64,000 bases of DNA from Patiria miniata (lineage: Eukaryota). How positions within the stretch are numbered: position 1 is the first letter of the stretch; each line of letters begins with the position of its first letter. Below are positions 2,036-64,000 of this stretch, in pieces. The notes beneath the pieces are model-generated. The model was not told where the DNA came from, ran no database searches, and saw only the letters and a list, made by a program, of their open reading frames with translations. The stretch lies in NCBI RefSeq assembly GCF_015706575.1, contig NW_024037060.1:2728515-2792514 (forward strand). Direction: 5' to 3'. Both the position numbers and the translations under genes were made by a program.

Positions 2036-5000
2036 AGGTCACTCATCGACAGGTTTGCATTTCTTTGGGATGAGACACGTGATGGCCACGACGAAGACAG
2101 CGAAGATGATGTAGCCAATGAAGATACCAGCCAGCTCACCCGAAGACCAGTACGAGAGGATCGGAGGCTCTATAAGAACGAAACAATGCCAAATGAGACG
2201 GGTCCGTGATTCTCCCAGATTCAGAGGTCCCCGGCCCATCTCATCAAATTTGGAAGAAAACTTTTCTTATTATACTGGACTGAAATGATGAAACTGCGTT
2301 CTCACTGCGCAAAATGCGACATTTGCTTTTGGCACACTTGTTTGTTTGAAGTTACAAATTAATTGCCCAAAGTACAGGGTGAGCAAAAAATAAAGGAAAG
2401 CCAGGCAGGACCATTTTTTTAATCAAGTTCTGCATGTAGCACTTTCAAAATCTAGGATATAAAAGCCCAATTCATAAGCTTTCGTTTAGTACAAAAATCA
2501 TTCAAATCACTTATGTACTTTTCAAATCACGGAATTTTAAAGCACCGTTTTAAAGTTCTGTCCACACACCACCAAAAGGTTAGCGTTCTTTCAGCAAAAC
2601 GAAAACAATTCACATGAATAGTATCGTTTTGCTGAAAGAACCTTGCCTTTTTTTGTGGGGTGTTTAGTACCCAGTACGATCTTTAATCCGAGATAAACTT
2701 TTTGATAATAACTCGGTTAGTTATCTTTGGAATAAATTCAAATAATAATATATTCCTTTAAATTAACATTCTAATAACACTCAACATGAAAACATTAGGC
2801 CAAAAAAGTCTCCGGTTTCTGGTATGCGCGCGCGTCGCCGTAGTCATGCGCGTCAGCAAAATGAAAAAGTTTTTTTTCAATGAAAGATGATGTCTCAAAA
2901 CCGCCAAACTCACTGGTTTAACTGGAATCCTGCTTCTGCACAATTTCAACGTGTTTTTAGAAGGGGTTATGATCGAGAATAAGCTTTATGTGGCCTCTCT
3001 GGACTCCCATATATTTGCACTAAGTTTAGTCGGCCACCATTTGCAGTCATCAGCCGACATTTGAAGCAAAAAAATAAATAAATAAACCAGGTTAAAAAAA
3101 AAAAAAGCCGCGTCGCCGCACCACTTTTTGGGCAAGCTCCATACAAACAAGAAACCGGAGTCTTTTTTTTTGGCCTTACTTGGTAAACAAATTTCATATC
3201 GAAGTCTTTTGCTGTGTCGCTTACCGCAAAGTTCAGAGCTTTCGTCCGTTCCGTGAATGCAGTCTGCGTTCGAATCACAAAGAGCCCGTTCGTCAATGCA
3301 GTAGAAAGGGCCGTAGATACTTTGGCAACGGACTCCCGATTCACAGTCTAAAAAAAACACACAGTTGATAAAACTTTAGAAACATTCTCCTGAAGAAGTT
3401 TCCTTTTGGCCTTTGCAACCCTCTGAAAAAAAGGCTTCCATTGTGCGCACTAATTAATCCGCGCCGTGCAAGGGCCGGATTATACATGTATATAGTCGGG
3501 CCGCAAATAATCCAAATGTTGTACAGAATAATTCAATAACTAAACATCGGTGGACTTTTTTTTTCGTTCCATGTCACATTTGAGAGTGATTAACTTTTCT
3601 ATTGCTAGGAGTATATAAGTAACTGAAAAGAAATCGTGGTGAAACTCGTAAGAGCACGAAGAATACATCTTTAAGTTATCATGGTGCATCTGAATTATTT
3701 TCTCCCTATAGGATAGGACCCGGATTTATTTATTTAAATGAGAGTGCGAGAACCGCCATGCTCAAAAATGCTAAGTGGGCCAACAATGTATGAAGTCGAC
3801 TTAGTACTGGTAAATCAAGTGTAAGAAAGAATTTTCCCTTTTGATCTGCAATGCTAGAAAAGCTAAAAGCAAGGCGTGGGTTTGAATATCCTCCAATATC
3901 GGGCATTTTTGTCATTTCTACTATAATGGATGTACGCAGTTTCAATCCAAACGAACAATAACACAGCCAACTCATTCTTTTACAGTTTAGCTGAAGTAAT
4001 TTCTGATTCATTTTCTCCCTAAATCTCCAGAACTTCTGACTTAACTTGTGAATTGACTTGTGAATTGAATGACTTGTGAGTTGACTTGTGACTGACTCTG
4101 GTTGAAAGTCTGGTACAAGTCTGGTTGAAAATAACAAGAATTGTGGACTATGCATCTATGCATAGAGCTGTATTATGCAGCTCTATGATATTAATATGCC
4201 AACTCCGACAAAGTCAATGACTCACTACAAAAAGATGCGAATTCATCCTCGCCGGCATAGCAGTCGACCACAGAGTCGCAAACCTTATGAGATGGCAGAC
4301 AGTTGTTACCAGGTGAATAGAAGCAGTGAAACGCACAGGGTTCTTCGGTGCCTTCAAAAGAAAAAAACACAGCATAAATTTAGGCCTTTTCCCCATTTCG
4401 TTTATAGCTCACTCCAGAAATATTCACGAAAAATGATGCTCTATATACTGTACATACTGTCACTCGACTAAATTGAACTGACAGTAACAGAAATTGTGGA
4501 CTATTTACGCCGATCGTGCCAACTCCGACAAAGTCAAAAACTTACCACATCGAGAATAGTCTTCATCCTTGCCATCAGTGCAGTCGACTACAAAGTCGCA
4601 AATCTTAGAAGATGGTAGACAGCTGTACTGGTTGCCATTGTTTAGTTGATAACAGTAAAAATTCGACGAACAACTATCTGTGGTAAGTAAAAAAAACACA
4701 CACACACCCACACACATATAAGTGTGAATTTGCCTGCAATCGGGGACCCCAATATTGTCCCTCCTTTGTTTGTACTTTTTAACTTTTTAGGAAGACCTCA
4801 AATATGTTTTGTACACCATCGCTCAATTGGGGACCTTCGGGAATTGGGACCTATTATTGTTCAACGTCCCCTACTGAATGCAGAAACAAACTCACATAAT
4901 ATGTGATTATTTTTTAGTTACTCATGAGGGCTTGCCACTTTCCTTCTTTTGTTCCCTTTGGTTTGTACCTCAAGCTCCCATAAGGTTTGTATACGAAACT

Positions 5001-8000
5001 CTTTCGAGGACTGAAATTGGGGACAATATTAGACTTAGTGTAAAATTCAAACAATCGAATAGTTCGAGGTTTCACTCGAGTCTGCACTGGATCGGTCTTG
5101 GTCCTCCCCTTCCCCCTCCCAAATTGGTTTTGATCTAAACTTAGAGTGATTTTCCACTTTGTTAATGAGAGTAAGTGAAGCCAAATTCGACAGAGGCCTG
5201 GTTCAAACTTACCGTCGCAAAGTGCGTCTTCCTCGTCGTCTCCGTCTCGGCAATCAGGATATCCATCACAAATTTCAGGAGTTCGAACGCAAAGGGGGAA
5301 GCCGGAAGCATCCCGGCAATGAATTCCATCCGATGGACAATCTATAAAATCGAAGTCGAGAATTACAGCGCTGCTACTATACATCAGCAGTGACAGCAAC
5401 ATCACTCCCCCCCCCCAAAAAAAACCCCCCACACACAGATAAATAAACACACGATTCCAAAGTTCATATTATAATATAGGTTTCCCGGCTATTTTAAAAC
5501 ATTTTCCACTCAAATTCACCAACTCTAACAATCAATTTTGTCCGAGAAAAAATTCTCATGCTTTTAACACAACCAATTTAGTCATTATCATTCAATTTCA
5601 AAATTTGATCACCCATTTTAGTCACCGGGTCGATAATATTCGTCATTACAGATCAAATCCGTCTAAGCTGTTGCCGAATGGCAGCATTCAGAGATCAAAT
5701 TCGTCTTATATAAATCAATTAGACGAATTTGATTTCTGAATAACACGATTCGGCGTAGACGAGACGAAATCGAATACACCGGGTCGAAAACGTGTGCTCA
5801 TTGTTTTAATTTGTTTGAACTAAATTTGAAATTGTCAGACAAAAGACGAAATTAAACATTGAAAGTGCACTAAATCGATGTTGCCGGACGAAATGAATAT
5901 AAGAATCGGTGAATTCGAACGAAAAATGTTTTCAAATAGCCGGTAAAACCTATACTCATTAGAATGAAAAGCCGATAGCATTTTTGGCAATGACGACAGA
6001 ATGATACTGAAATATAGATGTGGACATACATCAGTTCCGCACTTAAAGGTGAGGGGGGGGGGGGGCACGTGCTCCAGCGGATGTCCGTTCCCCCTGTGCC
6101 CCCTCCCTCATTTAAAATTGAACTAAAAGACATTGATGTCTTTGGCTTCAGTAACACCCCTTGAAAAATGTGTGTACATACCTCAAGGTACCCCTCCCCT
6201 ACTTCCAAATTTTCCGATTTTAACCCCGGTTAGCCACTGACTAAGATATGCGAGATATTTGTATGGAGGGCGCAAAAGACAGAGTTATACACATACATCT
6301 CTCTGGCAAGGTATTCAATAGGGGCCGGACAACTACAAAGAGAAATCAATCAAAAAGAGGGAGGGCCGTTAGGGACCCTTTTAAACTCTTCGCAAAACAC
6401 AACATCAACGAGAGGCAATATCAGCAAAACACACCATCAACAAGAGACAATACGCATCAGCAAAACACAACATCAACAAGAGACAATACGCATCATTGAA
6501 TTTAACCGTATCGGCCAACGGGGCAACAACAATTTGTTTGATTTCTTCTGCCGACCGACCTATACCTCAGGCAACCAAATATGAGAACCATATAAATAAA
6601 TAGGGACGCCCTTATGAAATACAAATACAAATTAATTTAACGATAAAAATGACAGTTCATGGTATCTTTGGAACTAGAAGCACTTACCACAACGGCTATC
6701 TGTTTCGTCTTGGTTATGCCAGCAGTCGGTAACTCCATTGCACAGCTCTTCCACTGGAATGCACAGCCTCGTGTTCTCGTGAGTAGGGCAGACAATTCCT
6801 GAGTCACAATTAGCTGCATGGCGAAAACACAAAAAAGCCCTAAACGGTACAAGAACTGGCAGGTCGACCTGTGCGAACCAACGAGCTCTTGCGAGATATG
6901 TGTATGGAGAGCTGTTTGTTGGGGGATCTGTTACATGGTACCCTCTGGAGACATGGGTACAATATGGAACAAAAGATTGTATACGGACGTCTCCACAGGG
7001 CAATTTCTATAGATGAATACGTCTCCACAAGGTACACGAAATAGATATATGGATTTTACCCCCAAACTAGGAATTTTTCAAGGTGGGTTGATCCGTCGCA
7101 AATTGAAGTATTTTATGTAAGGGATATATGTAAATCCAAATATCCATAAAGGCAAATATCCATACCTTCATCCGAATGCCTAACATCGAAAACTTGGTCC
7201 CGTGGTCAATTTGACCTCTCTTGGAAAATTACACATAACTCTGTCAAAAATTATCAGATTTGGACATTTAATGTCTCATTTTAAAGTGTAGGGCCTAAAG
7301 GCGTATCTTTCACACCATACCTATATTGTCTATTTTGGTTACACATTCTACGTCCGGCATTCCATTATATTTTGTTTGCATTTAGTAGGAAGAAAATGAA
7401 CTGTGAAAACTTACTACAGTTCTTCTCATCACTACCGTCCGGACAATCAGGAAAACCATCGCAGATGTCACTCAACAAATAGCAAACCGGGTTATCTGTG
7501 CACTTGATTAGACCAGAGTAATAAGGACACTCCCAATCTGGAAACAAAGAGAGTTAAACATGAATACCAGCGGTGTCGAAGGTGGTGATAGTGGAGATGA
7601 GTGGTGGTGAAACCTTGCAAGTTGTGAATGTGATTGTTTGAGTTGCAGGGTGACCGTACGGTCAGAGCCAAATTCTGCTAAACGCACATCAAAAATCTGT
7701 CAGATTTATCAAAAATCTGCCAAATTACCCTGAATTACTTAAAATACACTATAAACACTTAAAATCACATGCAGATTAGTATTATTGCCTTAATTAAGAT
7801 TCAAATTACATAATAAACAATCTAGTCACATAAAGATATTGTGAAATTATTGGTAAATTTCGGGCCACGTTGATCCGGCCACGACGAAGTCCGTTTCCCA
7901 GTGAACCTCAGCACCTAGACCAGCCAACCTGTCCCATTATGCAAGGGTTTGTTTGAAAGGATTGAAGCTTTTTAAAACAAATGTACACTTTTTCGTTAAA

Positions 8001-11000
8001 ATTTGCTGTTTTTCTGTCAAATAACCATTTATGCAGAATTCTGCCAGAAATCTGCCAAAAAACCCATTCTGTCAAATTTTCTGTCGAACTAGTTTTTTAA
8101 CAAAAATTCTGTCAAAGTTAGCCGAAAATCGGCTAAAACGGTCACCCTGTTGAGTTGTGTCAATGCGGAGAAAACGACAGACCCTACCTTCAGAAGTCGA
8201 CGTGATCACCATGATTACCCCATCGTCTGTGCCTTGAGAATCCGTTTTAAACTTGACCGTCAGGAAACGGCCATAAGTCTCAACTGTAAAATAAGAACTG
8301 CCATACTTTCCACATAACTCTAGTAATAAGTCATCGCCATTTGTCCCGCTTCCCTCATAGTACGTCAGGCAATCATAATCCTCCAGTGAAAAACGATGAA
8401 ATCTAACCAGCAACCTGTGGTTAATCTGGGTGTACAGCATCATAGTGCAGGTTTTGGAATTACTGTACTGACTGCCCCTGTTGGTATGAAGCCAAATGGT
8501 TTTATTGGGATGCACCAGTGTGTCGTTCGAACAGAAGTCCTCCATGAAGTAGTTCGCTGTGATTAAAGAGAACGGAACATTTACTCCAGACAATCGTTAC
8601 TGAAACAAGACTAGACAACCCCAGTAAAACTAGTCCCAGAGCGCACAGAATTCTATTCAATTGATTCAGAAAGATTTAAAAAAAATATTGTAGAATAATG
8701 GAAAGCGGCACGCGATAGAAATGGAAAATCAATATTTGCATTTCGCATGAGTTTGACTTATTCCCTACTCTTATATCTTGAAAGTGCATGAAACAAGCGT
8801 CAGTAAGTAAGATAGGTAACCAGTCTAATTCCCAATTGACATGTCAGTCAGTTTGAGACTGAAGTAAGTCTAAGTCACAAGTTGAAAAAAAGAATAAGAA
8901 AAAGAAAACGATGATGATAGATGAATGACACCAATTTTGTATGTAATACATCCCCTACCTTCTACTGCAAACGTTGTGAGCGAGTAGGTGAGCCGATCAT
9001 TATATCTGATTCCGTCTGAGGCGTCTACGCCGAAAAGAATGGCAGGTCCTGTGGTAAGGAACACGGTGTCGTCGTAGAAGCGAAGTCCGCACTTGCGCAA
9101 CATGGAGCTTGCCGAGGTGGTGTTGCCGTCAAACAGTGTGACACAGACTTCCTCGTCAATCCACAACGGAGTCGTTGATTTCGCAAGGAACAGCGTTGGT
9201 GTAGGCGAATTGTAGGTGAAGGCCAGAGAGCAGTTTTCGTCGGACTTTTCATACCAGGCTCCATATTGCAAACGGACTTTAACGCTGCTTCCGAGCGGGA
9301 CACTGGAGATGTCAATAGATGTACCGTCGTTATGGGCACAGGCACCGTTTTTGTACAAGAAGTACTCATCTGAAAGCAAGAGAGGGCAGACAGAATTTCC
9401 AATTTTAATGCTCACCTAAAGTTCATGATGTTCATCTAACATAATAATGCCAGGGTCAAGGATAGCTGATAGTAAATATCAAGCGATGGTAATTTCCCCA
9501 TGGGTAAAATGTAAATCATTAACAGCGTACGTGTAGGCCAACGCGTAGTACTGACAGATGGTTAATAAGTCCTATAGCAGATTTTAACTAACAAGTGGGC
9601 ATTGGTGTGAATTATAATTGCCTTGTGAATTGTCGGTATCGAGCAGCGATACACGTTATGAATCCCTATCAGAGGCAATTTCCACGTACAATGTACGCAG
9701 CCTATAATCGTTCTAAAATGTCAACATCCGTAACAGTGAAACACCGAGGCCCCACCCCAAAAAAAGATATATCGTTTGGTCATAATTAACTTGAATTTCA
9801 GAATAATCATGTCGTTGAATGTTTTCTAAGTCTGAAATGTACAGTACAGATAATATTCCATTTAAAGCAATTGATGATTTTCCGCCATAATTTATGACCA
9901 CTCTTTATATCATGATTGGTCTATGCTCTTTTTCCACAAAAGTCTCATTTCGTCGGTCAAACTTCAATTCTACAGCAAACTGATTCAAGTCGTCAAAGAC
10001 TTTTCTATCTATTGTGTTTCTATGATTACTGTAAAGGCTGTAGTGCTGGTTAAAGCAATGTGCATACTTATTTGCAAACATTCACAAATGCAACGAGCAA
10101 ATTATTACGAAAAAAGCCTATGATTGAAAGTAATAGTATCAAGCGTCCTGGGAAATCTTAGCGTCTGGTATAATGCAGTCCGCAGCATTTTGCATATTGT
10201 TTCGGGGGGAAAAACACAAACTTAGAGAAAAGTTAGAATTTTGGCCGAATGCAGATATTAAGGTTAAATCCAAATAGACCTATACTCTACAGGTTTTCCC
10301 GACTATACCAAACGCTTTTTTGGTAGTCCAATTCTAATATTCATATTCGTCCGAGAATTTCACATGCTTATATTAAAAGCAATTTAGTAATCAATTTCAA
10401 AGGAGTTTGGTCAACGTATCTAAGCACTTGGCCAAGAATATCCGTCAATACACATTGAATCCGTCTTAGCTATCGCCGAACGGCAGCATTCGGAGATCGA
10501 ATTCGTCTGATGTCATACAATGTAGAAGTTGTGTCAGGTAAATTGACGCGCACAATTTAGCACATTCGTTCGCATGATGTTATCAGACCAAGTAGGTGTT
10601 CTTTACTCAGAGAGCAGTTACCAAAAGACAAGTGTAAATATAACCAAGAACAACAAACCATCAATAACCTTTTAATTTTGAAACGAATAAAACAAGTGTT
10701 CAAATGAAAAAAAGACAAATGTCAAAACTACGACGACCCTTTTAATATATTTTCCCGTGTAACGTTTGTGCCCAAAGCTGGGTCTAACGTACTTTTCAGA
10801 AGATCAAATCAAGCGAAGCAAATAATAGATGTATATGAAGAAACAAGGAAATAAAAAGGGCAGAAAACTCTTCCCATCAGCGGCATGCCTCCGCTGAAGT
10901 TGCAGCAAAGTAAGACGAAATTGAACAAAATTATGATTAAATTGTGTGACATAATAAGATGAATTGTTTGCTTTCTGAATAACACTGCTCGGCGTATAGA

Positions 11001-11279
11001 CGAGACAAAATCGAATGCTGCTTGACGTACATGTGTGCTCATGGTTTCAATTTCCTTGAACTGAATATAAAATTGTCTCACAAAAGACGAAATTATACAT
11101 TGGAAGTGCACTATATCGATGTTGATTGACGAATTTCAATATTAGAATCAGTGAATTTGAATGATAAATAGCCTGGAAAACAAACGCTAAAACATACCTG
11201 TGGAAGGGCCATCGCCACCACCTTCTGCACTGGCAACCATCAAGACAACAAGATAGAATACGATTCTAATGTTCGCCAT
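2036..11279 (-). CDS. Gene A: multi-exon gene for a type-I transmembrane protein with a signal peptide, 2 CUB domains, 6 LDLa repeats, a TM helix and a short cytoplasmic tail. Exons on the minus strand: 11198..11279 (ATG, signal peptide MANIRIVFYLVVLMVASAEGG, donor GTATGT); 8959..9369 (CUB1); 8188..8556 (CUB2); 7415..7538 (LDLa); 6688..6813 (LDLa); 5212..5341 (LDLa); 4546..4677 (LDLa); 4226..4351 (LDLa); 3225..3347 (LDLa); 2036..2169 (TM + tail + stop).
   Basis: Six-frame ORFs give CUB-like sequences (…CGKYGSSYFTVETYGRFLTVKFKTD… and …CSLAFTYNSP…TGPAILFGVDASDGIRYNDRLTYSLTTFAVEG). Repeated LDLa signatures C..C…C…CDG..DC.DGSDE..C occur in exon-sized ORFs: [104 protein letters not shown]. The hydrophobic stretch LAGIFIGYIIFAVFVVAITCLI is followed by PKKCKPVDE and a stop. 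Each exon is flanked by a polypyrimidine tract plus AG acceptor and a GTAAGT/GTGAGT/GTAGGG donor, which I checked individually. The signal-peptide exon is hydrophobic and starts with ATG. Exon phases were not all verified. Confidence 0.8.
4040..4130. repeat. Minisatellite of about 4 imperfect copies of gacttgtgaattga, plus a gtctggttgaaa duplication.
   Basis: Read directly; located in a gene A intron. Confidence 0.8.
5455..5962. mobile_element. MITE-like non-autonomous element, family 1, copy 1, about 510 bp, with roughly 20-bp terminal inverted repeats (tataggtttcccggctatt … aatagccggtaaaacctata).
   Basis: TIRs seen directly. An internal palindrome (aattcgtct…agacgaattt) is present. A second copy occurs at 10262..11180. 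The element is AT-rich and has no ORF. Confidence 0.7.
7648..8152. mobile_element. MITE-like element family 2, about 505 bp, with TIR cagggtgaccgt… …acggtcaccctg. It is internally rich in the short repeats aaatctgccaaa and ttctgtcaaa. Located in the gene A intron immediately 5' of the CUB2 exon.
   Basis: TIRs read directly: 7648 cagggtgaccgtacggtcag and 8137 taaaacggtcaccctg. Internal direct repeats. Confidence 0.55.
10262..11180. mobile_element. MITE-like element family 1, copy 2. It has the same ends and internal segments as 5455..5962 but carries an internal insertion of about 450 bp (about 10510..10960). It lies in intron 1 of gene A, within 20 bp of the signal-peptide exon donor.
   Basis: Shared blocks: ccgtcttagctatcgccgaacggcagcattcggagatcgaattcgtct vs ccgtctaagctgttgccgaatggcagcattcagagatcaaattcgtct; ctgaataacac..cggcgtagacgagac.aaatcgaat; ttgaaattgtc.cacaaaagacgaaatta.acattg.aagtgcacta.atcgatgttg; terminal aaatagcc.ggaaaac. 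Confidence 0.65.
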
Positions 11280-14200
11280 GATGGCTGGATTAGTCTGAAT
11301 ATATTATAAACGATGCGACTTGCTCAAACCAGACCGCTCTAATGATCCAAGCTGTTCCAGTATTGGCGTACCAGGCATTGGGCCCGGATTGACGATGCAA
11401 TGTTAGTGTCTACGCTGCGCTGCCGTGCCAAAGTTCATTCGGGCGGCTCATGTACCAATCAGTTTATTTAGTTTGTGACGTTAACATTAATTGTATTTTT
11501 TTTGTTAGATTCCAGAAAAAAACCCGACCCAGTTCCAGTATTTGAGTTTGAACATTGAACGGGCTACGCCTTTTTTATGTGATTGTCATTATTTAAGTCA
11601 AGTGTGCGTGTACAAAAATGTCTTGTTTTTCGCAACAGTCTTGTCGTACACAAAATACCGAGGCTGCGCTTGGAGGGGTCCACTAAACAGGAAAAAATCA
11701 AGACCACGAAAAAGGGGATTTAAAAATGTTACGATTGTGAATGTATACGTCTGTTGATCATTCAGTTAGGGTTACATGAGGGGCCATTCAAACCATAGAG
11801 CTACAGAGATTACGGTGTGCCAGTTTTTTTTAGTGTTTTTTTTTAGACACGTCACATAAGTATGATTAATGGAGCCAAAGTACCTCCTCAGCAGTGGACG
11901 GTCAATTATCGACAGTGGCGGATCTGCGGTGAGGGGTATATAGGGTTTAATCCCCGGCAAAAAAAGGTAAATCATGCAAAAAAATCACAGGAAATGTCTC
12001 TTAACCCGCAGCTAACCCGCTCTTGATCTAAAACGGGATCCGCCCCTGATCTACCAATCACGACGAGTTGTGCCTGTAATTGTCTTTGAAGCAATTCGTT
12101 TCAGTGTGTCAATTAGTCCAGCCCCACTTTAGAAATCATGTTGCCCAAGAGGTAAGCTAGTCAAGGCATTGAACACAAAATGTATAATACGCGAACCGCC
12201 GCAAGAGGGCGTTATAAATCATAAAATCTCCCCCTGAAAAAGGAAGGAAACTACCGGTCTTGTTCACGCGTGACTTCTGCCGGAAAATACAGTCTATTCT
12301 CGGTCGCATGCATAATACATACGACGACAGAGCTACCATGGAGTTGCGTTAAGTCTGGTAGCATCTTGTATGTTACTGCATGGCGGAAATTTGGTAAGGG
12401 GCTGATATGCAATGTGTAGGATGCGCGCTGCATTAGGCAAAACCATAGATAATTAGGAGAGGGACCGGTCACGTGAGAGGGTTTAACCAATAAAAGGGAA
12501 AAAAGAGTCCGATTTTCATACGCGTCTGATTTCCATATGACACCGGTACCCATTCAGAGGACTGTCAATTATCGACGTGCGCGCGCATGACACAACCATA
12601 GATATAGAATAAAAAACTTATTCTATATATAATTATGGACACAACCCCTCAAGAATCAAGATTCCAAAGACGCTGTGATTGCGGTTCGTGGACAACAGCT
12701 CGTTCCCATGGTGCTGAGCAGTACGCTTCCACCACATAAAAGGCAATCAATAGAGGGCAGCACCCCGTACATTATTCAGTTCGGATTGCGTGTCCTGAAA
12801 GCTTTCAACAGGCAATTTCTTCAGAAATGTTCATATAAATATTCAGAAATGTTGCCTTCCGTAACCCATTTCCTCCCTAGACATTATGATACATCACCAC
12901 AGAGCACAACGCAAACCTTGCAGGAGATCTTTGGCAATTGTGCGGAAAACGCTTTGTTTTAAAATATGATTACCTTTCTTGGAAAATAGATAATACTTGA
13001 AAGAAATACGTTAATAGAAGACTTGTTTGGCTGACTTCAGTCGTTTTCATATACATGTGCCTAAATTATACGCAATATTTTACAAGAAAGGTTTCTTGTT
13101 AGACTATAAACTAATGACACTTTATAGACCTAAATTGGCTTAATTGAATAATATTGTAAAGTTTATCACGCACACAAACCATGCACAAACTTAATGTGGC
13201 CTGACGTACCAATCTTAAGATCTTCAGAGGCAACTATATTCTAGTTCCATAGTTCACAATTAGAAGCCATGTTGTTATACAGAGAACAGAGGCGCAATTT
13301 CCACATCCCCCTTACAATTTCAACAATGTTTTCATTAATTTAGGCGTAAGCAAAGAACATATTAATGAAAATGTGTACAATTTTAATAGCGGTAAACATG
13401 TCGAATAGATTGAACCGGTCGTTACAACGCTCGACTGGTTACCTCTATGAAGTGTTCTCTATTGTCATATCATATATTACCGACAAATCATGGCTGCTTG
13501 TGCATTATAAAGACTGCCCCTTGAAATGTTTCCACAGTAAATAACTTTTTTTTAATAATAGCATGAAGATTCCTTTGCTGGGAATTATTTATGATTCTGA
13601 GTTGATTCTTTGTCATCAGCACTTACGGAAATAAGTTCTATCAGAGCTTTCGGTATTCATCCAGCTGCATTTTTCAATGTGGCTTTTTTGAAGAATCGTA
13701 TCATAGAAAGAAAAAATTCCTTAGAAAAAAATTAATTGAGAACCTGCTTACAAATTCTAAGTAAGTATGTTCAGAATGAACAAACCAAAAGATCATCAAA
13801 AACTTAACTGCATAAAAATCCACACATTGCATTTGCATTTAGTATCGAAAGTTTTTTAGTTAATAAGTGAAGTAGCTAGTTTTATATCCTTTATACAGCT
13901 TTTTTTTTTTAATGTAGCAAGTCAAACAACATTTTTGTCTGAGTATGCTAAATCGGTTTTGCAAAAGAAATTAACATGAGATGATAAAGTGTTTCACAAC
14001 CCTTGACAGGATTTTTGTTCTGTGTGATTTGGACCTGTTTTAAAAGTTACGCCAAATATTGTAATCAAAATCTGTTTTGTTCATTTTTCAGATCAGGTAT
14101 CTTAAGAAAAGCATTCACACACCTTCTTGGTATGTGAATGCCTTTTATTAAATACAAGATAATTTGAAAAGTGGTTCAACCTGGAATGAGATAAGATAAA

Positions 14201-14450
14201 GACCAATATGTAGAGTATTTACTATACCTTTAAACTCTATAGATACGTTTTTTTAAATTTATATTTATGGATTGACTGCTACAGTTTCATTGAAAAAAGC
14301 TGTAGATTTGCAATACACATTTCTCTTGACAACTGTATTTCAGAAATGGGAACTTTACAAAATAGTAGAGGGCAGCAGTATTTCAGTATTCAGTTCGCAC
14401 CGCGTTGCGATTCTTTTCAAGCACTTTCTTTTTTTGCCCATTAATGCATG

Positions 14451-17400
14451 ATCTTACTCTTCCTCAGGTTTGCATTTCTTTGGGATGAGACACGTGATGC
14501 CAATAATGATGACAGCGAAGACGGCGTATCCACTGAAGATACCAGCTAGCTGACCCGAAGACCAGTACGAGAGGAGCGGAGGTGCTGTAAGATCGATAAA
14601 GGAATAACGAGACAGATGCATCAAAGCAATAATTGTGGCCAAATTCAACTGGAACTACGTACCCTCTAAATGACTGCTCCGTTGTAATAAACACTAACGC
14701 TCACGCCATATCAACTTTCTGTTTTATTGGCTCATTAATTAGAAAGCAACCAAAAGCAAGGTTTAATAGTTAACATCATAACATAAGCTGTATACAAGTT
14801 GCAACGAAAAGAATCTCAGTTTGGGTGGACTGAGATCTGTCAAATAGCAATAAACAAAAGAATCTAAAAAAACCCAAATATAATATAATATAGTATAAAT
14901 AGCCACACAAAATTCCCCTCTCAATGGAACGAATATTTTTTGTTACCGCATAGTACGCTGTTCTCGTCCTCCTTGTTAAGGCATTCAGAGAACCCATCGC
15001 AGAGGGCGGTCTCGTAAACGCATTGAAAACCAAAGCCCGTATCACACTGAACATCAGAGGGGCAATTAGCTGAAAATTAGCGGATCAGACAGGAGGTAAG
15101 GCAAGCGGTGTCAACATGTGTACCGGTCTAAAATCCTTGTAGCGTATCAAACTAGCCCTTAAAAAACTTTGGAATTTAACTTGCAGCTTGTTATCAGATC
15201 TAGCTGTAAAATGTTGTAAAAAACATGTACATTCAACCGACTAGTATCAATATCTTCTTCCTGTTGTAAAAACAATGGGTATTTTTGACCCGACATTCTT
15301 CTGGGTCAAAATGAGGGGTTTTTGGTGTCCAAATGACACTTTCCAGGTTAAATGGCCCGGAAAAGGGACTTCAAGAAGTTTCACGAATCAGGTAAAATCT
15401 GATATGGCTCTTCCAGTGGGATCTGATTTGGGGGCTTTTGTCCGCCTTGCTCTGCAAGTCGTCAACGCTTTCAAGTGGAATATTGCTTTTAAAGAAAACA
15501 CGAGGGCACATTTGGCTATTCATGGTCAGGTATGGAACGTCTTTTAAAATTAGATACTTACTGCATAACCAGGAGGTTTCGTCCGCAGTATTCATGCAAT
15601 CACGCTTAGAATTGCAAATGGCAGAAGACGGCAAACACTCAAAGTCGCCCGTGAAATTGTAGCAATAAAACTTAGAGGGACAATCTGAGTTGAATAAAAA
15701 AGAAATGACTTCAACCCTTCGGTTTAATAGGCACAGCGATATTCATGACGAAAAAGAAAAATGCTCGAGTTCAAAGACTGCTTTCTGGTAATATTCTTAC
15801 AATAACAGACTAACCTGAAGTGGCATCCATCAATATTGGGACAAAATAAATATATAAGCGTAAATCCAGACATTAATTTGAATGATATATGATTTTAATC
15901 GCTACTCTCCAAATTCCAAAGAGTGACAATTCACTCCATTCGAGTGAAGATTCACTCCCACAGTCGGAAACTAGGGACTGGACGTTTTAGAGTGAAATTT
16001 CTTCAATCGTAAAGATCGAGTTTTCACTCGAGCTTCGACTGAAGTGGTTATTTTTCAGACTATTTCAATTGAAAAATTAATGAGAGTGATTTTCACTCTA
16101 AAACGTCTAGTCCCTAATTTCACTCTTGGGAATTTAGAGAGTACATCTCACTATACATTTGGGAAAGTAATGGACCATACAACTTAGGCTATATGGTAAC
16201 CGCCAAAGTAACCCCATAAAATAATAGAATTGATTTACCTTTGCTGCACAATGCAGTGTCTTCGTCTTCATCAAATTTGCAGTTTTGCCAGCCGTTGCAA
16301 ACATTATACTGTTCCGTGCACTGATATTGTCCCCATGTATTCAGGCAATGAAGGCCATCGCAGTCTAAAACAGACGACATATGAAACACAAGAACATCAG
16401 GTGTCACTGTGATTACCTTTAGCATTTTCATCGCATGGCCGATGAAATTTCCTTGCTTTTTGCTGTTATATTTGCATATGTGTATGGATCACCGTTATCT
16501 CCTGTCACCACTGTCGACATCGTTTTAATCAACATTATCCGCATGTATTGGAGTATGCAAACCTTTCTAAATCTTCCTTTCTTTTTTCACTCCTCCACGT
16601 TTGTTGGTAGAGTAGTTCGCACATGCTTTGTGCATTGGTAAACGTTTCCACAATCTATCCTGGAAATTGTATGCGATGACTCCTTACAATATCAAAAGTA
16701 GGGGGAACTTGGACTAACGTTGATTCCATTAATTTAGTTGTTGGTAGAGTAGAGTAGTTCGCACATACTATATTTTATATAATATGGCGTTTCTAAGCTA
16801 GAGGTGCTACATTGGTAATCTTCACAGAAGTAAAGTATGGAAGAAATCTTCACACAAGGGGATATTCTGGGGAAGATGTTCAGGGTATTGCAACCAAATA
16901 CAATGAGCTATGTTTTAGGTAAACTTGCCCGCAATCTTTCCTGGATATATTTTATGAGATCGCTCCTTACAAATACTAAAAGGAGCTCCTTGAAAACTTG
17001 CCCGGGTTAATTTACCCAAGCATGGGTGAAAACTGCAACTACCCAAAATTGGGTTGTCCTTTACCCAATTATTTGGGTTAGAATTTCTGGTAAATTCAAC
17101 CAAAACTTGTGGTCATACCAGACTAAATTTAATTTGGTCTTAACTTATGTTGAATTTACCAGAAATTCTAACCCAAATAATTGGGTAAAGGACAACCCAA
17201 TTTTGGGTAGTTGCAGTTTTCACCCTTGCTTGGGTAAAATTAACCCATACAGGCAATTTTTCAGCGGGGGGTTTGGACTTTTCAACGTTGATTCGATGAA
17301 TTCCGTTTCGGTATACTCACCGCAACGCGCATCGGTCTCATCTTCTCCATTTATGCAATCAGTCACCCCGTCACACATGGACAGCACAGGAACGCATGAG

Positions 17401-20225
17401 TCTGTGGTGCCGTCGTTCAAGACACATTTGACGCCAGAATGACAAACCAAAGCTGAAATAATAATAGTCAAGAAAACTATTGAGGGCACTGTGTCACCTA
17501 AACTCATGATAGGCCGAGTCTGAATTGGTTGGCTATGGCTTGTTTGGACTTACTGCAGTTTTTCTCGTCGCTGCCATCACGACAATCGACGATGCCGTCA
17601 CATTGCTGGGATTTCCGATAGCACGCCTTACCGTCGTTGCACTTGTAGTAATACAGGTAATCACAGACAACTGCCAAGAAGCAGAAAAAATGTAAAATGT
17701 TACCTTGGCTGTCACAGTTTTGTAGGTCTGAGGTTAGCAAGGTAGTTGCTCGAATGGGCCAGGCGGGAACAATATATAATGTAGCCATCTCGTGAGAATA
17801 AAAAAAAAAGACATGTTATTAAAAAGAACTTTGAAAAAGATCGTCTTAAAATACGTTTTTTTGAGATAAGACCACTGTGGGGCATATTCAATTGAGGGCG
17901 CTATTTTTGTTTCCGACAGTTTTAAGGTCATAAGGTGTATGGTTTTGAAGACTGCGTGACCCATCTCACACTCTTTTAGGAAAGTTTAATTAGGGAAGCA
18001 CAAAGACTTCTGGGTCTAACATGAGCTCGTGAAGTGTCGTCCCTGTCCGAAAGAGGGCTGCAAAGAAATAAACCCCTCACCATAGATTTGATAGGGCAGT
18101 GGTTACGTGCGATCGCGAATGAACGAAGTGACAGAATAAGTGAGATTTGATACCCTCTGATGTAGCATCAATGACCATCGCTGCTCCTAGTCCTTTGATC
18201 CGTCCATCCGTCTCAAACCTTATCGTAAGGAGACGTCCCATATTTTGAAACTGGAAATACTCATTGCGGTCGTTTTTACCGCATACGCCGTCGTTGTATG
18301 AACTGCCATCAGCCCAGCTGGAGTTATAGAAAGTTAGGCAGTCCGAACCGGTCACAAAGGCTGTCGATTGAACTCGGGCGTAGAACATATAGTCCGGGTC
18401 GGTGCGAAGGGTCACGGTGCAGTCCATCGGTTTGCCGTTGAGGTCGTCCCGGTTGGTGTGAAGCCAGATGGCCGTATCCGGACGAACCACTGTGTCTAAT
18501 GTACAGTTGTCAGACATGAAGAAGTTAGCTGTGGTGTTTGGAATAAAAGAAAACATCAAAAATCATGATGCGAGAATAAATTTGGATCCATTTTTAAGGA
18601 AGTTAATACTGAGGTGCCGAGTATACTATACACTCTAAAAACAACTTAGTCAAAATATTGACTGGTTTTCCTAGTTATTGAAAATTGACTAGCAATTTAG
18701 TAAAACATGCAAAGTTTCATATACTGTGACTAGAAAAAGTAGTTGGGTTCGACTCGAAATTCAGTTATTGGCATAACTATTTTTCCCAAGTCAATAATAC
18801 TGACTGGAAAAATCTAGTCAGATTGACTGATTTTCAGTTGCACCCAGCTGACCCTGAATGGCTAGTCATATTTAACTGGTTTCTAGTCAAATCTGACTAA
18901 TGCTTTTTTAGAGTGTAGAGTTTTGTGAGGTTTTACTTCATGTCAATGTAAACATGTCGTCACCGTTTCTGACGAAGTGACGAGTTCGTCTAAAGCTGGT
19001 ACGTATAATTTAATGCAACAAAAAAACCCAGATTTTTAATGTTGTCGGGAATCGGCCATCAAGATTTCAATCAAAAACATCGTAATTGTTAAAGTTTTTT
19101 TTTTTTTAACTGTACACGAATAGCAAAGTAGATGCTAAGAGATTTAAAAGATATATATACAGTACCTTCCACCTCAATCGGCGTAATGTCAAACGTGAAT
19201 CCTCGATAACGCAAGTCACCAGAAATGACGGTTGTAAAACGTATCAGAATTGCCGGCCCAGTCGTCAGGAAGCTAGCTTTACCGTAGAAATAGCCACATC
19301 GGTGAAGGTTTAGACTAGCCTCGCTAGTCGCGCCGTCGTATAGCGTCAGACAATCATTATTATTCAACCGGACGAAGTTCCCGCCCCCTCCGACATGGAA
19401 AAGCGCCGGGTTGCGATAGGTGAGTACCAGTGAGCAGTTGACGCCCCGGTCGTAATCTTCGTCAGACTGGGACTTGACAACCACGGAGGAGCCGTAAGAC
19501 ACGATGTCAGTCAGGTCAATGGGATCGTCCTGGCTATATACGCAGGCGCCTTTGTCGTACATGAAATACGTAACTGTAGGAGAGAAAGGGTTGTTACCAC
19601 ATGAACATTTGTCTGGTGCTTCAATTTTGACATGAGTGTTCAAAAAGAAGTTCATTATTCTCGACATGCACTATAGATATACATAACAAGTCGTGGATTT
19701 GGCGGGGATTGGAGTTGTATGAAGTCTAACAAACCAACCCCCACGAAAAAATATACAACATAATGACTAATGTCTTAAAATACTATGAATATCTCAATGA
19801 AAGCCCTGCTTGAAAATCCAGTCACTGTATTTATTTTTGGAAGATTTGTTTTCTCGATAATCAGGCCATGACAATTACTATATACTACCAGGTACTCACA
19901 TTTATAAATACAAATTAAATAAGGCGTCCTCGAAAAAAGAAAATGGTAAAACGTTTTTTTCCTGATTGTGATCAAATATCCTAAAATCAGAAAAAAATAA
20001 GTTTAAGTAGTTTTCAATAATGTTGCTCCCCCACCAGTGCCCGCTTTTCCAAACATTTGTTTGGGCACGAAAATGTTTTGACTTACAATTGTGCTACTCC
20101 TATTCCTGCGTAAAAGTCCGGATACTAATGCCACCCTCAAATAAAAGAACCTCACCTTTAGAACACTCTGACAATCCAGTCGTCATCAGCAAGACAAGAC
20201 TGCAAAAGATTCTGATACCCGTCAT
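14451..20225 (-). CDS. Gene B: tandem paralogue of gene A with a signal peptide, 2 CUB domains, 5 LDLa repeats, a TM helix and a tail. Exons on the minus strand: 20156..20225 ([24 protein letters not shown], donor GTGAGG); 19166..19573 (CUB1); 18154..18528 (CUB2); ~17545..17665 (LDLa); ~17310..17440 (LDLa); ~16250..16380 (LDLa); 15562..15684 (LDLa); 14948..15069 (LDLa); 14451..14583 (TM + tail + stop).
   Basis: The architecture and exon order match gene A. CUB1 aligns with gene A ([34 protein letters not shown] vs SDEYFLYKNGACAHNDGTSIDISSVPLGSSVKV). LDLa motifs are [72 protein letters not shown] and [18 protein letters not shown]. The TM exon [40 protein letters not shown] is about 85% identical to gene A's at the nucleotide level. 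Acceptors (ttacag, cacag, ctcag, tttcag) and donors (GTAAGT, GTATCA, GTACTG, GTAACA) were checked by eye. Confidence 0.8.
15905..16140. mobile_element. MITE-like element family 3, about 236 bp, with 13-bp TIR ctctccaaattcc…gggaatttagagag and an internal long inverted repeat (tagggactagacgttttagagtgaaa … ttttcactctaaaacgtctagtccctaa). Located in a gene B intron.
   Basis: An inverted-orientation copy lies at 21464..21694. Degenerate relatives are at 25640..25830 and 5025..5110 (shared cgagttttcactcgag core). Confidence 0.7.
17001..17243. repeat. Foldback element: a near-perfect palindrome with roughly 100-bp arms (gggttaatttacccaagc…ggtaaattcaac / gttgaatttacc…gcttgggtaaaattaaccc) around a loop of about 40 bp.
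   Basis: The two arms are reverse complements, checked base by base with 1-2 mismatches. It lies about 45 bp 3' of a gene B LDLa exon and gives the spurious plus-strand ORF 17026..17442. Confidence 0.85.
18628..18920. mobile_element. MITE family 4, about 293 bp, TIR tacactctaaaaa…tttttagagtgta. Located in the gene B intron between the CUB exons.
   Basis: A near-identical copy (>95%) is at 55001..55290 in the same orientation, which suggests recent transposition. Confidence 0.8.
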
Positions 20226-22177: not shown

Positions 22178-25100
22178 GCTTCACTTGCTCAGAAGGCCAT
22201 GGGTAAAGGCGTCCCAGTCGACAAGTGCTCCAAACTGCCCTTCCACGCTCTCTACCGACCCTTTAATGTACGCGCTCGCCCGCTCGATGGCTTGTGAGAC
22301 CTTCCCAGCGACAGACGTGGGCAAGTCTAGCTGGGCAGACACGTTATGTAGGTGAAGGCGGGCGAGTAGAGTCGCCACCAGTCGGACGGCCAGATCAAAG
22401 ATGTCACCGACGTCTACCGTAGCTCCTTCTCGCGACATGACTACACAATAAACAACGAATTTATATTATAATTATGATGATATAAATATCATAAAAATAA
22501 ATGATTAAGCATGGTTAATTTTTAAGGGATTTTTAAAATTAAAAACGAGCATGCCTTTTGTATCCCTTATACTTATAGAAACGTATTGATGTGTCATAAT
22601 GGGGTATCTCATATTTCAAAAAATAATAAAAAAATATAATATTAACGTTTATTAATAATAACGGTGTGGACTTCTTTTGGTATAATATAAAATGATCTGA
22701 ACAGTGTTGGTCTATATTGATGATTATGTATTAATATATACATACGTTTCACCAACTCCCTCAAAAAAGGCCCAATAATCATTATCAAAATAACTTGGAC
22801 GACTATCGAAATTGAAGACAAGGATTCACTTGGGCCGTCTTACCTGATTTGAGTTTTTCTTTGAGACGTTGTTTGCACTCCAAGATGTTGATACCTAGAA
22901 TCTCCTCCAGTTCAGACTGAAACTCCCAATGTCCGTCCTGAAAAGCGGAAAACCCAATAAGCCCTTAGATTTCAGCCAACTAAGCTGTTTAGATTATAAT
23001 TAGCCATTTTTGACAGAAAGAAAGCACACATTCATAATGGAGCCTGACAGGTATTATAACACATACCACGTTTTGTAACTCAATAAGACGCAGCGTGTCT
23101 TTGGTGACAGTTTCTGGATCCTTTACAAGAGAAGCCATGGCGTCAGTCATCAGCTCATCATCGGAGCTCCCAACAGACACTTGAGGTGGACGTCGGGGAG
23201 GGGCGGTGCCTCCTAGGGTTGGTGGGGTAGGAGGTGGGGCAAGGCTTACTCCAGATGGTAGGGGAGGGGGAGGGGCGGCGCCTCCTGGTGGGGGCGGGGG
23301 AGGGGGAGGGGCGGCGCCTCCTGGCGGGGGAGGGGGAGGAGCGGAGCTGGCCATAGTTTCTAAAAGTGGAATGGGGGAAGCGCGCATACGTGCTGAGAAA
23401 GCTTCCTCATCAAATGATGGGGGATGGGGAGATAATTCCGGAGCGTCTCGACTAAGACTTTTCGGTTGCTTGCTCTTTTTCTTTTTAAATAAGCCCCCCA
23501 CTGCATCCTTTGCTGTCTTCATTATGCCTGGGCCGCTGGACTTCGGTCGTCTTTCAGGAGCGTAAGATGCTCCAGGCAATTCTTTTTCCTTTCTTGCAGC
23601 TTTGGCCCTTTTCTGAATGACAGGATTTTCTGAACCCTGAAGTACCTTGACTGGTTCAAAGGCCCTCTCTTCATAGCGTTGTGGCTCTGGCATGGTGAGT
23701 TCAAGCACTGGTTCCGGCATAACGACCTCCCTTTCGATCATCCTATCCGGTTCCAAGACAACTTCTCTTTCTTGTACAGCAAGTTCTCTAATATCCTCAC
23801 TTAGTTCGTGACGTTGTGGCATGGCTACAGTGTCAACAAACTGGGGAGAAAGACTCCTCTGCGGCTCTGGCATGAGAAGATCTCTTTCGATCATCAAATC
23901 CGGCTCAAAGACAACTTCTTCTCTAGCACTGGTGTAAAGCATCGGCCGTGGGACATATATTTCCTGTTCCATCACATCTTCCTCCAACACTTTCGCAGTC
24001 ATGATCTCCTGCGGCTCCTGTGGTTCCGCAACCCAGCTGCGGGATACAGTTACAAGGGTGTCTGTCTTAAGTGGTTCCATTTTGGGTCTTCCCATCGGTT
24101 CCTGTCCATAGCTGCATGTGTCTCGGTCTTCCACCCATGTCACTTCATCCCTTGTCAACTCATGAGAGACTGTCATCCATCTATCCATCTCCCCTGTTGA
24201 CTCTACATTGTCTTCCTGACTGACTACCACTAACTCCTCTCCTAACTCATCAATGTCTTCAAGATATACTTCCACTGACTCGTCTAATTCAGCCGGGATA
24301 TCGCGTAGGCTGGGTTTGTGCTCAGGCTGTACCGGCTGCGCATTGATCCTTGCCATCTCCATTTGACATCTGATTAGTACAAAGAAATGCAGTTTATATA
24401 ATTAGACATTTATTTATGTATTTATTTATTCCATTTCTTTGCCCAGGGTATGCCCAAACTGTTAGAAACTGGTTTCCATTAGGGCCCTGCATACTTACCA
24501 AATTATTAAAAAATGTTAAGTAAAGTTGACCTCGTAAGGAAAATACATTGGTGAAACATACGACGAACATTAATATTTTTATACAAGTACATGTATCTCA
24601 AAAATATTAAAGAAAAGCTATATACATTGTACATATTTTAAACATGCAACTATTTGGCATAAATTACTGATCACGCGGGACGGGCGAAAACCCCACAAAA
24701 ACCTTTAGGGGGAAAAAAGGAGAAATTCTTAATCCAGCTCCAAATTAATGCCATGGCAACCAAGTATATAGTCCGTAGATCAACGCATTTTGAACTAAAT
24801 TTCACTCACTTATGGTGTGAAATAAACTCAGATATGAAAATATAACATACTTAACCAACGAAGAACACCCTTCCCAAACAAGCTGGTAAAGGGTCGACGT
24901 TAGGTTCAAATAGGCACTGGTAAGGAAACGCTTAGTATAGATCTTTATCATGCTGCCACCATTTCAGTCTTGTTCCCTGTATCCAATAAAAATACTTTTT
25001 TTTGCGTACAAAAAGGAACCAGACTATTTTTACCTTCCAGCCTCGCTTTGGTTACGTTGATTTGAATGGGAAAAATCAAAACGGACGCAACATGATAATG

Positions 25101-37100: not shown

Positions 37101-37104
37101 CAAA

Positions 37105-37153
<49 letters not shown>

Positions 37154-63984: not shown

Positions 63985-64000
63985 TATTGGACGTTGAACA

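What the first reader, a model, noticed from the sequence alone, without database searches (positions are those of the whole stretch)
2036..20225. Tandem pair of undescribed CUB-CUB-LDLa(n)-TM receptor genes with a conserved KKCKP cytoplasmic tail
Two adjacent paralogues, both on the minus strand, encode a signal peptide, 2 CUB domains, 5-6 LDLa repeats, a single TM helix and a cytoplasmic tail of only about 10 residues ([12 protein letters not shown] vs [12 protein letters not shown]). I do not recognise this architecture as a named family. It resembles NETO/LEV-10-type CUB-LDLa auxiliary subunits but has far more LDLa modules. Ectodomains are strongly diverged: CUB1 is roughly 35-40% identical between the two genes, and the LDLa exons cannot be aligned beyond the motif. 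The TM/tail exon, in contrast, is about 85% identical at the nucleotide level.
Basis: partly seen in the sequence, partly recalled or inferred. Interest (0 to 1): 0.75.

Follow-up and report, generated by a model that had tools for sequence, protein, structure and literature searches.

The report
Sea-star CUB–LDLa membrane protein gene pair
Two neighbouring sea-star (Patiria miniata) genes encode membrane-anchored proteins of a small, uncharacterised, apparently sea-star-only family that public databases already predict under misleading automatic names, and their membrane-anchor exon is unusually similar between the two copies even at silent codon positions.

Summary
Window 2036-20225 (minus strand) carries two intact, separately terminated genes from the sea star Patiria miniata. 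Each encodes signal peptide, divergent CUB, CUB, 6 (gene A) or 5 (gene B) LDLa modules, one TM helix and a 9-residue tail (PKKCKPVDE / PKKCKPEEE). Every intron is GT-AG and phase 1. My hand-built models equal RefSeq XP_038058552.1 ("LRP2-like") and XP_038058090.1 ("ST14 homolog") residue for residue, so the genes are already predicted. The names are automatic: there is no EGF/beta-propeller, NPxY motif, SEA domain or protease domain.

An exhaustive profile search of 1.84 billion proteins found full-length relatives only in P. miniata (a third paralogue on the same scaffold) and Acanthaster planci. Two shorter P. miniata proteins and one protein of unknown organism share the TM/tail signature YWxxGxxAGxxxG...[KR][KR]C[KR]. 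I found no paper on the family.

The TM exon is 84.7% identical at nucleotide level against 56-61% for the CUB exons. Identical residues use the same codon in 28 of 30 cases against 81 of 202 elsewhere (p=1.4e-8). That points to exon-limited gene conversion or synonymous constraint.

The most likely role is a Ca2+-dependent ligand-binding co-receptor that docks to a partner through its TM helix. This is inferred, not shown. Interest is modest.

The parts
11198..11279 (-). Gene A exon 1: start codon and signal peptide (MANIRIVFYLVVLMVASAEGGGDGPST). An alternative phase-1 donor lies at 11222.
   Evidence: The model using donor 11198 equals XP_038058552.1 exactly.
8959..9369 (-). Gene A exon 2: divergent CUB domain (CUB1)
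   Evidence: Phase 1-1 exon. hhalign against CUB2 gives 93.6% probability and against canonical CUB E 8e-5. All-beta in the AF2 model.
8188..8556 (-). Gene A exon 3: CUB domain (CUB2). It retains residues aligned to the canonical Y/E/D/D Ca2+-site positions.
7415..7537 (-). Gene A exon 4: LDLa module 1
6688..6813 (-). Gene A exon 5: LDLa module 2
5213..5341 (-). Gene A exon 6: LDLa module 3
4546..4677 (-). Gene A exon 7: LDLa module 4
4226..4351 (-). Gene A exon 8: LDLa module 5, which has no counterpart in gene B
3225..3347 (-). Gene A exon 9: LDLa module 6
2036..2169 (-). Gene A exon 10: stalk, TM helix (SYWSSGELAGIFIGYIIFAVFVVAITCLI), tail PKKCKPVDE and the stop codon (2038-2036)
   Evidence: AF2 predicts a helix at residues 552-573.
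20156..20225 (-). Gene B exon 1: start codon and signal peptide ([23 protein letters not shown])
   Evidence: The model equals XP_038058090.1 exactly.
19166..19573 (-). Gene B exon 2: divergent CUB domain (CUB1)
18154..18528 (-). Gene B exon 3: CUB domain (CUB2). The Tyr and Glu of the canonical Ca2+ site are not conserved here.
   Evidence: No Pfam CUB match was reported for gene B at E<=1.
17554..17670 (-). Gene B exon 4: LDLa module 1
17321..17452 (-). Gene B exon 5: LDLa module 2
16239..16364 (-). Gene B exon 6: LDLa module 3
15562..15684 (-). Gene B exon 7: LDLa module 4
14947..15069 (-). Gene B exon 8: LDLa module 5
14451..14584 (-). Gene B exon 9: stalk, TM helix ([29 protein letters not shown]), tail PKKCKPEEE and the stop codon (14453-14451)

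Best explanation
These are two tandemly duplicated, independently transcribed Patiria miniata genes. They belong to a small family of type I single-pass membrane glycoproteins that has so far been found, at full length, only in sea stars.

Architecture (shown): cleavable signal peptide, a divergent CUB domain, a recognisable CUB domain, five or six LDLa modules, a TM helix carrying a glycine-zipper-like YWxxGxxAGxxxG face, and a 9-residue tail with a membrane-proximal Cys and a [KR][KR]C[KR] cluster.

Mechanism (inferred):
- The CUB and LDLa ectodomain binds extracellular protein ligands. Binding is probably Ca2+-dependent, at least in gene A, whose CUB2 keeps the residues aligned to the canonical Y/E/D/D Ca2+ site.
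- The tail has no NPxY, YxxPhi or di-leucine motif and is too short to signal or to recruit endocytic adaptors. The proteins therefore most likely act as ligand-capturing co-receptor or auxiliary subunits, in the manner of NETO or LEV-10.
- They would couple to a partner, or self-associate, through the conserved TM helix and a probably palmitoylated, polybasic juxtamembrane stub.

Evolution: the ectodomains have diverged freely between paralogues (dN about 0.55, dS saturated). The TM/tail exon is kept similar across species by purifying selection. Between the two tandem copies it is additionally similar at synonymous sites, most simply explained by a short, exon-limited gene-conversion event.
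For: Gene structure:
- Canonical GT-AG, all-phase-1 introns and intact ORFs.
- Exact identity to XP_038058552.1 and XP_038058090.1.

Domains:
- Pfam Ldl_recept_a at 9.3e-22 and 4.1e-16. Pfam CUB at 28.9 bits for CUB2 of gene A.
- The CUB2 profile hits cubilin, neuropilin-2, NETO2, PCPE-1 and C1r in the PDB.
- CUB1 matches CUB2 at hhalign 93.6% and matches a canonical CUB profile at E 8e-5.
- All 11 LDLa modules have six Cys and the acidic cluster.

TM and tail:
- Hydrophobic helix at residues 552-573.
- Invariant C-x-P...YW..G..AG...G...F...C across seven family members.
- The Acanthaster TM/tail is 86% identical to gene A's, against 48% in the CUB region.

Family range: the exhaustive search found full-length relatives only in Patiria and Acanthaster.

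TM exon:
- 84.7% nucleotide identity against 56-61% for the SP and CUB exons.
- pS 0.13 against 0.79 elsewhere.
- 28/30 identical residues use the same codon, against 81/202 elsewhere, p=1.4e-8.
- The similarity block is bounded by the acceptor region and the last three codons.
- No RNA-structure signal.
- The distant member P0053 uses different codons.
Against: - There are no expression, localisation, ligand or partner data, so the co-receptor role rests on anatomy and on analogy with NETO and LEV-10.
- None of the LDLa modules keeps the aromatic residue two positions before Cys4 that I recall as part of the canonical Lys-binding pocket (plus my own knowledge). Ligand binding may therefore be atypical.
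- Gene B has lost the Tyr and Glu of the CUB2 Ca2+ site.
- Against a simple recent A-B conversion: at protein level the TM region shows the same branching as the rest of the gene. B is the outgroup, and A-Acanthaster identity (86%) exceeds A-B identity (72%).
- dN/dS within the exon is about 1, based on only 17 substitutions.
- Palmitoylation and glycine-zipper packing are motif-level inferences.
Confidence: 0.55

Rival explanations
1. They are autonomous endocytic or scavenger receptors of the LDL-receptor type, as the RefSeq name 'LRP2-like' implies. They would bind lipoproteins or other cargo through the LDLa modules and internalise it themselves.
For: Five or six tandem LDLa modules with intact Cys and acidic signatures. 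The best non-family hits of the full-length protein are LRP-type proteins.
Against: Pfam finds no EGF or YWTD beta-propeller (Ldl_recept_b) even at E<=1. The cytoplasmic tail is 9 residues with no NPxY, YxxPhi or LL motif (read directly from the sequence). The similarity to LRPs is confined to LDLa repeats, at 23-48% query coverage.
Confidence: 0.12
2. The TM helix is only a passive anchor. The ectodomain is the functional part, for example a shed or surface-displayed recognition molecule in immunity or gamete/larval recognition. On this reading the TM-exon similarity is purely a by-product of gene conversion between tandem copies and carries no functional constraint.
For: Within the TM exon dN/dS is about 1, and synonymous sites are as conserved as nonsynonymous ones. 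The ectodomains are strongly diverged in a tandem family, a pattern typical of recognition molecules.
Against: Gene conversion cannot act between species, yet the Acanthaster TM/tail is 86% identical to gene A's against 48% in the CUB region. The same YW..G..AG...G...[KR][KR]C[KR] signature persists in unlinked, far more divergent P. miniata paralogues and in P0053, which uses different codons.
Confidence: 0.2
3. The exons are pseudo-exons, or parts of one larger gene, or decaying pseudogenes.
Against: All 19 exons are open, with canonical splice sites and consistent phase. Each gene has its own start codon with signal peptide and its own stop codon. The genes are 3.2 kb apart, with poly(A) signals downstream of gene B's stop. 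The models are identical to two separate RefSeq proteins. A collinear orthologue exists in Acanthaster.
Confidence: 0.03
4. They are non-catalytic derivatives of matriptase-type (ST14-like) membrane serine proteases. They would have arisen by exon shuffling from a protease gene, such as the LDLa-trypsin gene at 53-64 kb in this window, and would act as decoys or regulators of such proteases.
Against: There is no SEA or trypsin domain, and the topology is type I rather than type II. tblastn of gene A against the neighbouring protease gene gives only weak LDLa-motif hits (E >= 0.003) and no CUB similarity. The best CUB matches are cubilin, neuropilin and TSG-6, not matriptase.
Confidence: 0.08

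Closest known systems
NETO1/NETO2 (and Drosophila Neto, C. elegans SOL-2): auxiliary subunits of kainate-type glutamate receptors
   Different: These genes have 5-6 LDLa modules instead of 1, and a 9-residue tail instead of a tail that I recall as long (well over 100 residues). Sequence similarity is weaker than to cubilin. P. miniata has a separate protein annotated as NETO2-like (XP_038066955.1), so these genes are not NETO orthologues.
Matriptase/ST14 and related type II transmembrane serine proteases (TMPRSS6, enteropeptidase)
   Different: These genes have no N-terminal signal anchor, no SEA domain and no protease domain. The membrane anchor is at the C-terminus.
LDL receptor family (LRP2/megalin, LRP1, LDLR, VLDLR)
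   Same: Clusters of LDLa modules, each encoded by its own phase-1 exon.
   Different: No EGF or YWTD propeller, no NPxY tail, and the presence of CUB domains.
LRP3/LRP10/LRP12 (CUB- and LDLa-containing LRPs)
   Same: Type I membrane proteins built only of CUB and LDLa modules. LRP3 proteins appear among the weak hits (E about 1e-7).
   Different: In LRP3/10/12 the CUB and LDLa modules are interleaved (visible in the Anolis LRP3 sequence) and followed by a long cytoplasmic tail. Here the two CUBs come first, then all the LDLa modules, then a 9-residue tail.
Small invertebrate SP-CUB-LDLa-TM proteins (e.g. Solemya velum KAL5022315.1) and, as an untested lead from memory, vertebrate LDLRAD2
   Same: They share the CUB subtype that begins Y[FY]M[DE]xxC, followed by LDLa and a TM.
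   Different: They have one CUB and one LDLa, a longer Pro/Tyr-rich tail, and no YWxxGxxAGxxxG/[KR][KR]C[KR] signature. The relation to LDLRAD2 was not tested.

Membership tests
LDL receptor family (RefSeq name of gene A: LRP2-like) | Cluster(s) of LDLa (complement-type) repeats | tested here: met
   Pfam PF00057: 6 stretches in A (9.3e-22) and 4 above threshold in B (4.1e-16). By Cys pattern there are 6 and 5.
LDL receptor family (RefSeq name of gene A: LRP2-like) | EGF-precursor homology region (EGF repeats plus YWTD beta-propeller) | tested here: not met
   No Ldl_recept_b or EGF hit at E<=1. No sequence remains unassigned between the last LDLa module and the TM.
LDL receptor family (RefSeq name of gene A: LRP2-like) | Cytoplasmic tail with NPxY (or other) endocytic motif | tested here: not met
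   The tails are PKKCKPVDE and PKKCKPEEE.
Matriptase / ST14 (RefSeq name of gene B) | Type II topology with N-terminal signal anchor and SEA domain | tested here: not met
   There is an N-terminal cleavable-type signal peptide and a C-terminal TM. No SEA hit.
Matriptase / ST14 (RefSeq name of gene B) | Two CUB domains followed by LDLa repeats | tested here: met
   CUB-CUB-LDLa(5-6), against 4 LDLa modules in matriptase.
Matriptase / ST14 (RefSeq name of gene B) | C-terminal trypsin-like serine protease domain | tested here: not met
   No PF00089 hit. The ORF ends 9 residues after the TM.
NETO (neuropilin and tolloid-like) | SP, two CUB domains, exactly one LDLa, TM | tested here: not met
   Two CUBs and a TM are present, but there are 5-6 LDLa modules.
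NETO (neuropilin and tolloid-like) | Long cytoplasmic domain that mediates intracellular interactions | tested here: not met
   The tail is 9 residues.
NETO (neuropilin and tolloid-like) | Association with ionotropic glutamate receptors | not testable with these tools
   Requires co-expression or co-IP.
LRP3/LRP10/LRP12 | Interleaved CUB-LDLa-CUB-LDLa order with a long cytoplasmic tail | tested here: not met
   The order here is CUB-CUB-LDLa(n) with a short tail. Compare the Anolis LRP3 sequence.
CUB domain superfamily (PF00431) | Second domain: CUB sequence profile and beta-sandwich fold | tested here: met
CUB domain superfamily (PF00431) | First domain: CUB sequence profile and fold | tested here: inconclusive

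The most novel reading that the evidence does not exclude
The family is a sea-star-specific set of diversified surface recognition receptors, for immune, gamete or settlement cues. Their fast-evolving CUB/LDLa ectodomains would all plug into one shared, still unknown signalling or endocytic partner through a dedicated TM 'docking' exon (YWxxGxxAGxxxG plus palmitoylated [KR][KR]C[KR]). That exon would be actively kept uniform among tandem paralogues by exon-limited gene conversion, giving a modular 'variable head, constant anchor' system.
Probability: 0.2. Interest if true: 0.55.

Novelty: new variant of a known kind. Interest (0 to 1): 0.3.

Why it matters
1. It corrects misleading automatic names. 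'LRP2-like' and 'suppressor of tumorigenicity 14 homolog' would propagate into echinoderm comparative and expression studies, although these proteins are neither.
2. It defines a lineage-restricted CUB/LDLa membrane-protein family with a diagnostic TM/tail signature. That signature can be used to search other echinoderm genomes.
3. The contrast between saturated divergence in the ectodomain and near-identical codons in the 131-nt TM exon is a clean, testable small case of exon-scale concerted evolution or synonymous constraint.

None of this bears on a long-standing open question, so the value is mainly for annotation and hypothesis generation.

Tried and rejected
The decisive cross-species synonymous-site test could therefore not be run.
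- A TM/tail-only profile search of the 5.8-billion-protein database returned nothing, not even the family itself. This is uninformative, probably because of filtering of a short hydrophobic profile.
- A degenerate DNA pattern for TC[LM]IPKKCKP gave 0 hits in JGI metagenome contigs.
- The full-length AF2 model was too poor to use (pLDDT 47). It was replaced by the CUB1-CUB2 model.
- The AFDB50 fold library was unavailable.
- Literature searches by domain terms, accession numbers and assembly id found nothing on this family. The LDLRAD2 search gave no architectural information.
- An RNA secondary structure as the cause of synonymous conservation is rejected (z +1.07 and +0.46).
- A PDZ-ligand reading of the tail is rejected, because the C-terminal residues are E or G. 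A KKxx ER-retrieval reading is rejected, because the lysines are at -5, -7 and -8 rather than -3 and -4/-5. Both rest on the sequence plus my own knowledge of those motifs.
- The origin of P0053 (assembly GCA_014845345.1) could not be resolved to an organism.
Full report
**What is there.** The window has about 40% G+C and is clearly eukaryotic. On the minus strand between 2036 and 20225 the stop-free segments rich in Cys or longer than 90 codons fall into two collinear series. Scoring acceptors and donors showed that every candidate exon has a polypyrimidine-AG acceptor leaving two bases before the first full codon. Each also has a GT donor leaving one base after the last full codon. All introns are therefore phase 1, as expected for shuffled CUB and LDLa module exons. 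Signal-peptide exons with a phase-1 donor lie at 11279-11198 (gene A) and 20225-20156 (gene B). Joining the exons gives uninterrupted ORFs of 583 aa (A, 10 exons) and 534 aa (B, 9 exons).

**Independent corroboration and origin.** A search of the 5.8-billion-protein database returned a 583-aa Patiria miniata protein at 99% identity over 100% of the query. The query used the shorter of two possible first-exon donors. With the longer donor (11198) my model is the same sequence as that protein. An exact-sequence look-up identifies it as XP_038058552.1, 'low-density lipoprotein receptor-related protein 2-like'. The same look-up shows that my gene B model is exactly XP_038058090.1, 'suppressor of tumorigenicity 14 protein homolog'. 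UniProt calls both 'CUB domain-containing protein'. The window is therefore bat-star DNA. Both genes are already predicted as separate genes, and the exon structures I derived from sequence alone agree with RefSeq.

**Domains.**
- *Pfam.* It finds Ldl_recept_a strongly in both proteins. It finds CUB only in the second CUB of gene A (28.9 bits, cutoff 21.4).
- *CUB2.* A four-sequence profile of CUB2 hits cubilin (2.3e-8), neuropilin-2, NETO2, PCPE-1 and C1r among PDB sequences. It also matches a canonical CUB profile at 96.6% probability.
- *CUB1.* Its profile hits nothing in the PDB by sequence. It is, however, homologous to CUB2 by hhalign (93.6%, E 2e-7). It also aligns to the canonical CUB profile at E 8e-5 with the conserved cysteines in register.
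- *LDLa.* All eleven modules keep six cysteines with canonical spacing and the D-x-x-x-D ... D-E acidic cluster. None keeps an aromatic residue two positions before Cys4.
- *Ca2+ site.* In the alignment to canonical CUBs, gene A's CUB2 keeps residues at the positions that I know as the Ca2+-site Y/E/D/D. Gene B has lost the Tyr and the Glu.
- *Anchor.* The C-terminal exon encodes a short stalk, a 22-residue hydrophobic helix and PKKCKPVDE or PKKCKPEEE.

**The family.** Gene A and gene B are 39% identical and collinear.

- A third paralogue, XP_038058195.1 (572 aa, 53% identical to A, tail PKKCRPVDG), sits on the same 8.3-Mb scaffold but not in this window.
- Acanthaster planci has one orthologue, XP_022106156.1 (536 aa, 45% identical).
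- I ran an exhaustive HMMER search of 1.84 billion representative proteins with a CUB1-CUB2-TM profile from which the LDLa region had been removed. It found these three representatives at E about 1e-155. Next came three short ENA fragments (1e-40 to 1e-29), then generic multi-CUB proteins such as cubilin-like, tolloid-like and CSMD-like.
- The TM/tail signature recurs in two shorter P. miniata proteins on other scaffolds, XP_038078844.1 and XP_038076165.1 (one CUB-like domain, which Pfam does not call, followed by several LDLa repeats and the tail HKKCRKQVG). It also recurs in a 232-aa SP-CUB-LDLa-TM protein (tail NRRCKK) from assembly GCA_014845345.1, whose organism I could not determine.
- Across these seven sequences the invariant positions are C-x-P ... 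Y-W-x-x-G-x-x-A-G-x-x-x-G-x-x-x-F ... C.

**The TM exon.** It is 111/131 = 84.7% identical between A and B, against 56-61% for the SP and CUB exons and 50-66% for LDLa exons.

- Nei-Gojobori counts give pS = 0.13 (dS 0.146) and dN = 0.15 for this exon, against pS = 0.79 (saturated) and dN = 0.55 for the rest.
- Among identical residues with degenerate codons, 28 of 30 use the same codon in the TM exon against 81 of 202 elsewhere (Fisher p = 1.4e-8).
- The similarity block starts about 15 nt inside the intron, ends 10 nt before the stop, and falls to background on both sides.
- Selection on the protein alone does not explain conserved silent sites. A short gene-conversion tract, or constraint on the nucleotides, is needed.
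- I found no RNA structure signal, and the distant member uses different codons. Both favour conversion.
- Conversion cannot be the whole story. The Acanthaster TM/tail is 86% identical to A's, against 48% for the CUB region.
- The TM region also shows the same branching order as the rest of the gene, with B as outgroup.
- I therefore conclude that purifying selection on the anchor is shown across species, and that nucleotide-level homogenisation between A and B is shown as a statistical excess. Its cause is unresolved.

**Mechanism.** The type I topology, the ligand-binding module types and the absence of any known endocytic or signalling motif in a 9-residue tail are shown. The following is inferred. 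The proteins capture extracellular ligands. They act through a partner, or as oligomers, engaged by the conserved glycine-zipper-like TM face and a palmitoylatable, polybasic juxtamembrane stub. This would be functionally analogous to CUB/LDLa auxiliary subunits such as NETO or LEV-10.

Rival readings are scored in the report sections: an autonomous LDLR-type endocytic receptor, a passive anchor with a conversion artefact, pseudo-exons or a single gene, and a non-catalytic matriptase-stem derivative. The first and third fail direct tests here.

**Comparison with known families.** The genes fail defining features of each family considered:
- the LDLR family (no EGF/propeller, no NPxY);
- ST14 (no type II anchor, SEA or protease domain);
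- NETO (LDLa number, tail length, and a separate NETO-like gene exists in the species);
- LRP3/10/12 (module order, tail).

They are best described as a new arrangement of familiar modules with a family-specific anchor. Literature searches found no description of them.

**Verdict.** Interest is modest at 0.3.

Noticed in passing
window 22992-38322, minus strand: A PARP4-like (vault PARP) gene. Exons match PARP_reg (37966-38322), the PARP catalytic domain (34492-34878), VIT (32045-32545) and VWA_3 (29876-30220). A 470-codon Pro-rich open segment at 22992-24401 has no Pfam hit. It may be the 3' part of this gene or a separate gene.
   Followed up: partly
window 45372-46442 (+) and 47392-48675 (+): Two adjacent single-exon rhodopsin-family GPCR ORFs (7tm_1 at 4.8e-60 and 3.1e-30). 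The second has a long, Ser/Thr-rich third intracellular loop.
   Followed up: partly
window about 53000-64000, minus strand (runs off the window end): An LDLa-rich serine-protease gene. It has a trypsin-domain exon at 53033-53512 and LDLa-like exons near 57.1, 58.7, 59.3, 59.7, 60.65, 62.1 and 63.7 kb (Pfam LDLa at 63673-63999). An open segment at 57709-58167 looked CUB-like by eye but had no Pfam hit. Its similarity to genes A and B is at LDLa-motif level only.
   Followed up: partly
window 17004-17100 and 17149-17245: A 97-nt inverted repeat, 96% complementary, with a 48-nt loop. It lies in the intron between the LDLa-2 and LDLa-3 exons of gene B and looks like a MITE-type insertion.
   Followed up: no
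gene B CUB2 exon, window 18154-18528: Relative to gene A, the third paralogue and Acanthaster, gene B has replaced the Tyr and the Glu at positions that align to the canonical CUB Ca2+-binding site, although the third paralogue's Glu position is ambiguous. This suggests that ligand-binding chemistry has diverged between the two tandem copies.
   Followed up: partly
Acanthaster planci XP_022106155.1 (P0026; not in the window): 'Isoform X1' (651 aa, 'sortilin-related receptor-like') carries extra LDLa modules. It ends in a hydrophobic, Ser/Leu-rich C-terminus (…RLVDWMASLLVTSSLLSSSLSLRA) in place of the family TM/tail. I suspect that the TM exon is read in another frame, or that the gene model is wrong.
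   Followed up: no
L001 (GCA_014845345.1 contig JACSEG010029768.1), 64-762: A 232-aa SP-CUB-LDLa-TM-NRRCKK family member is encoded without introns on a 1.3-kb contig, whereas the P. miniata genes have an intron between every module. It could be a retrogene or a transcript-derived contig. The source organism was not identified.
   Followed up: partly
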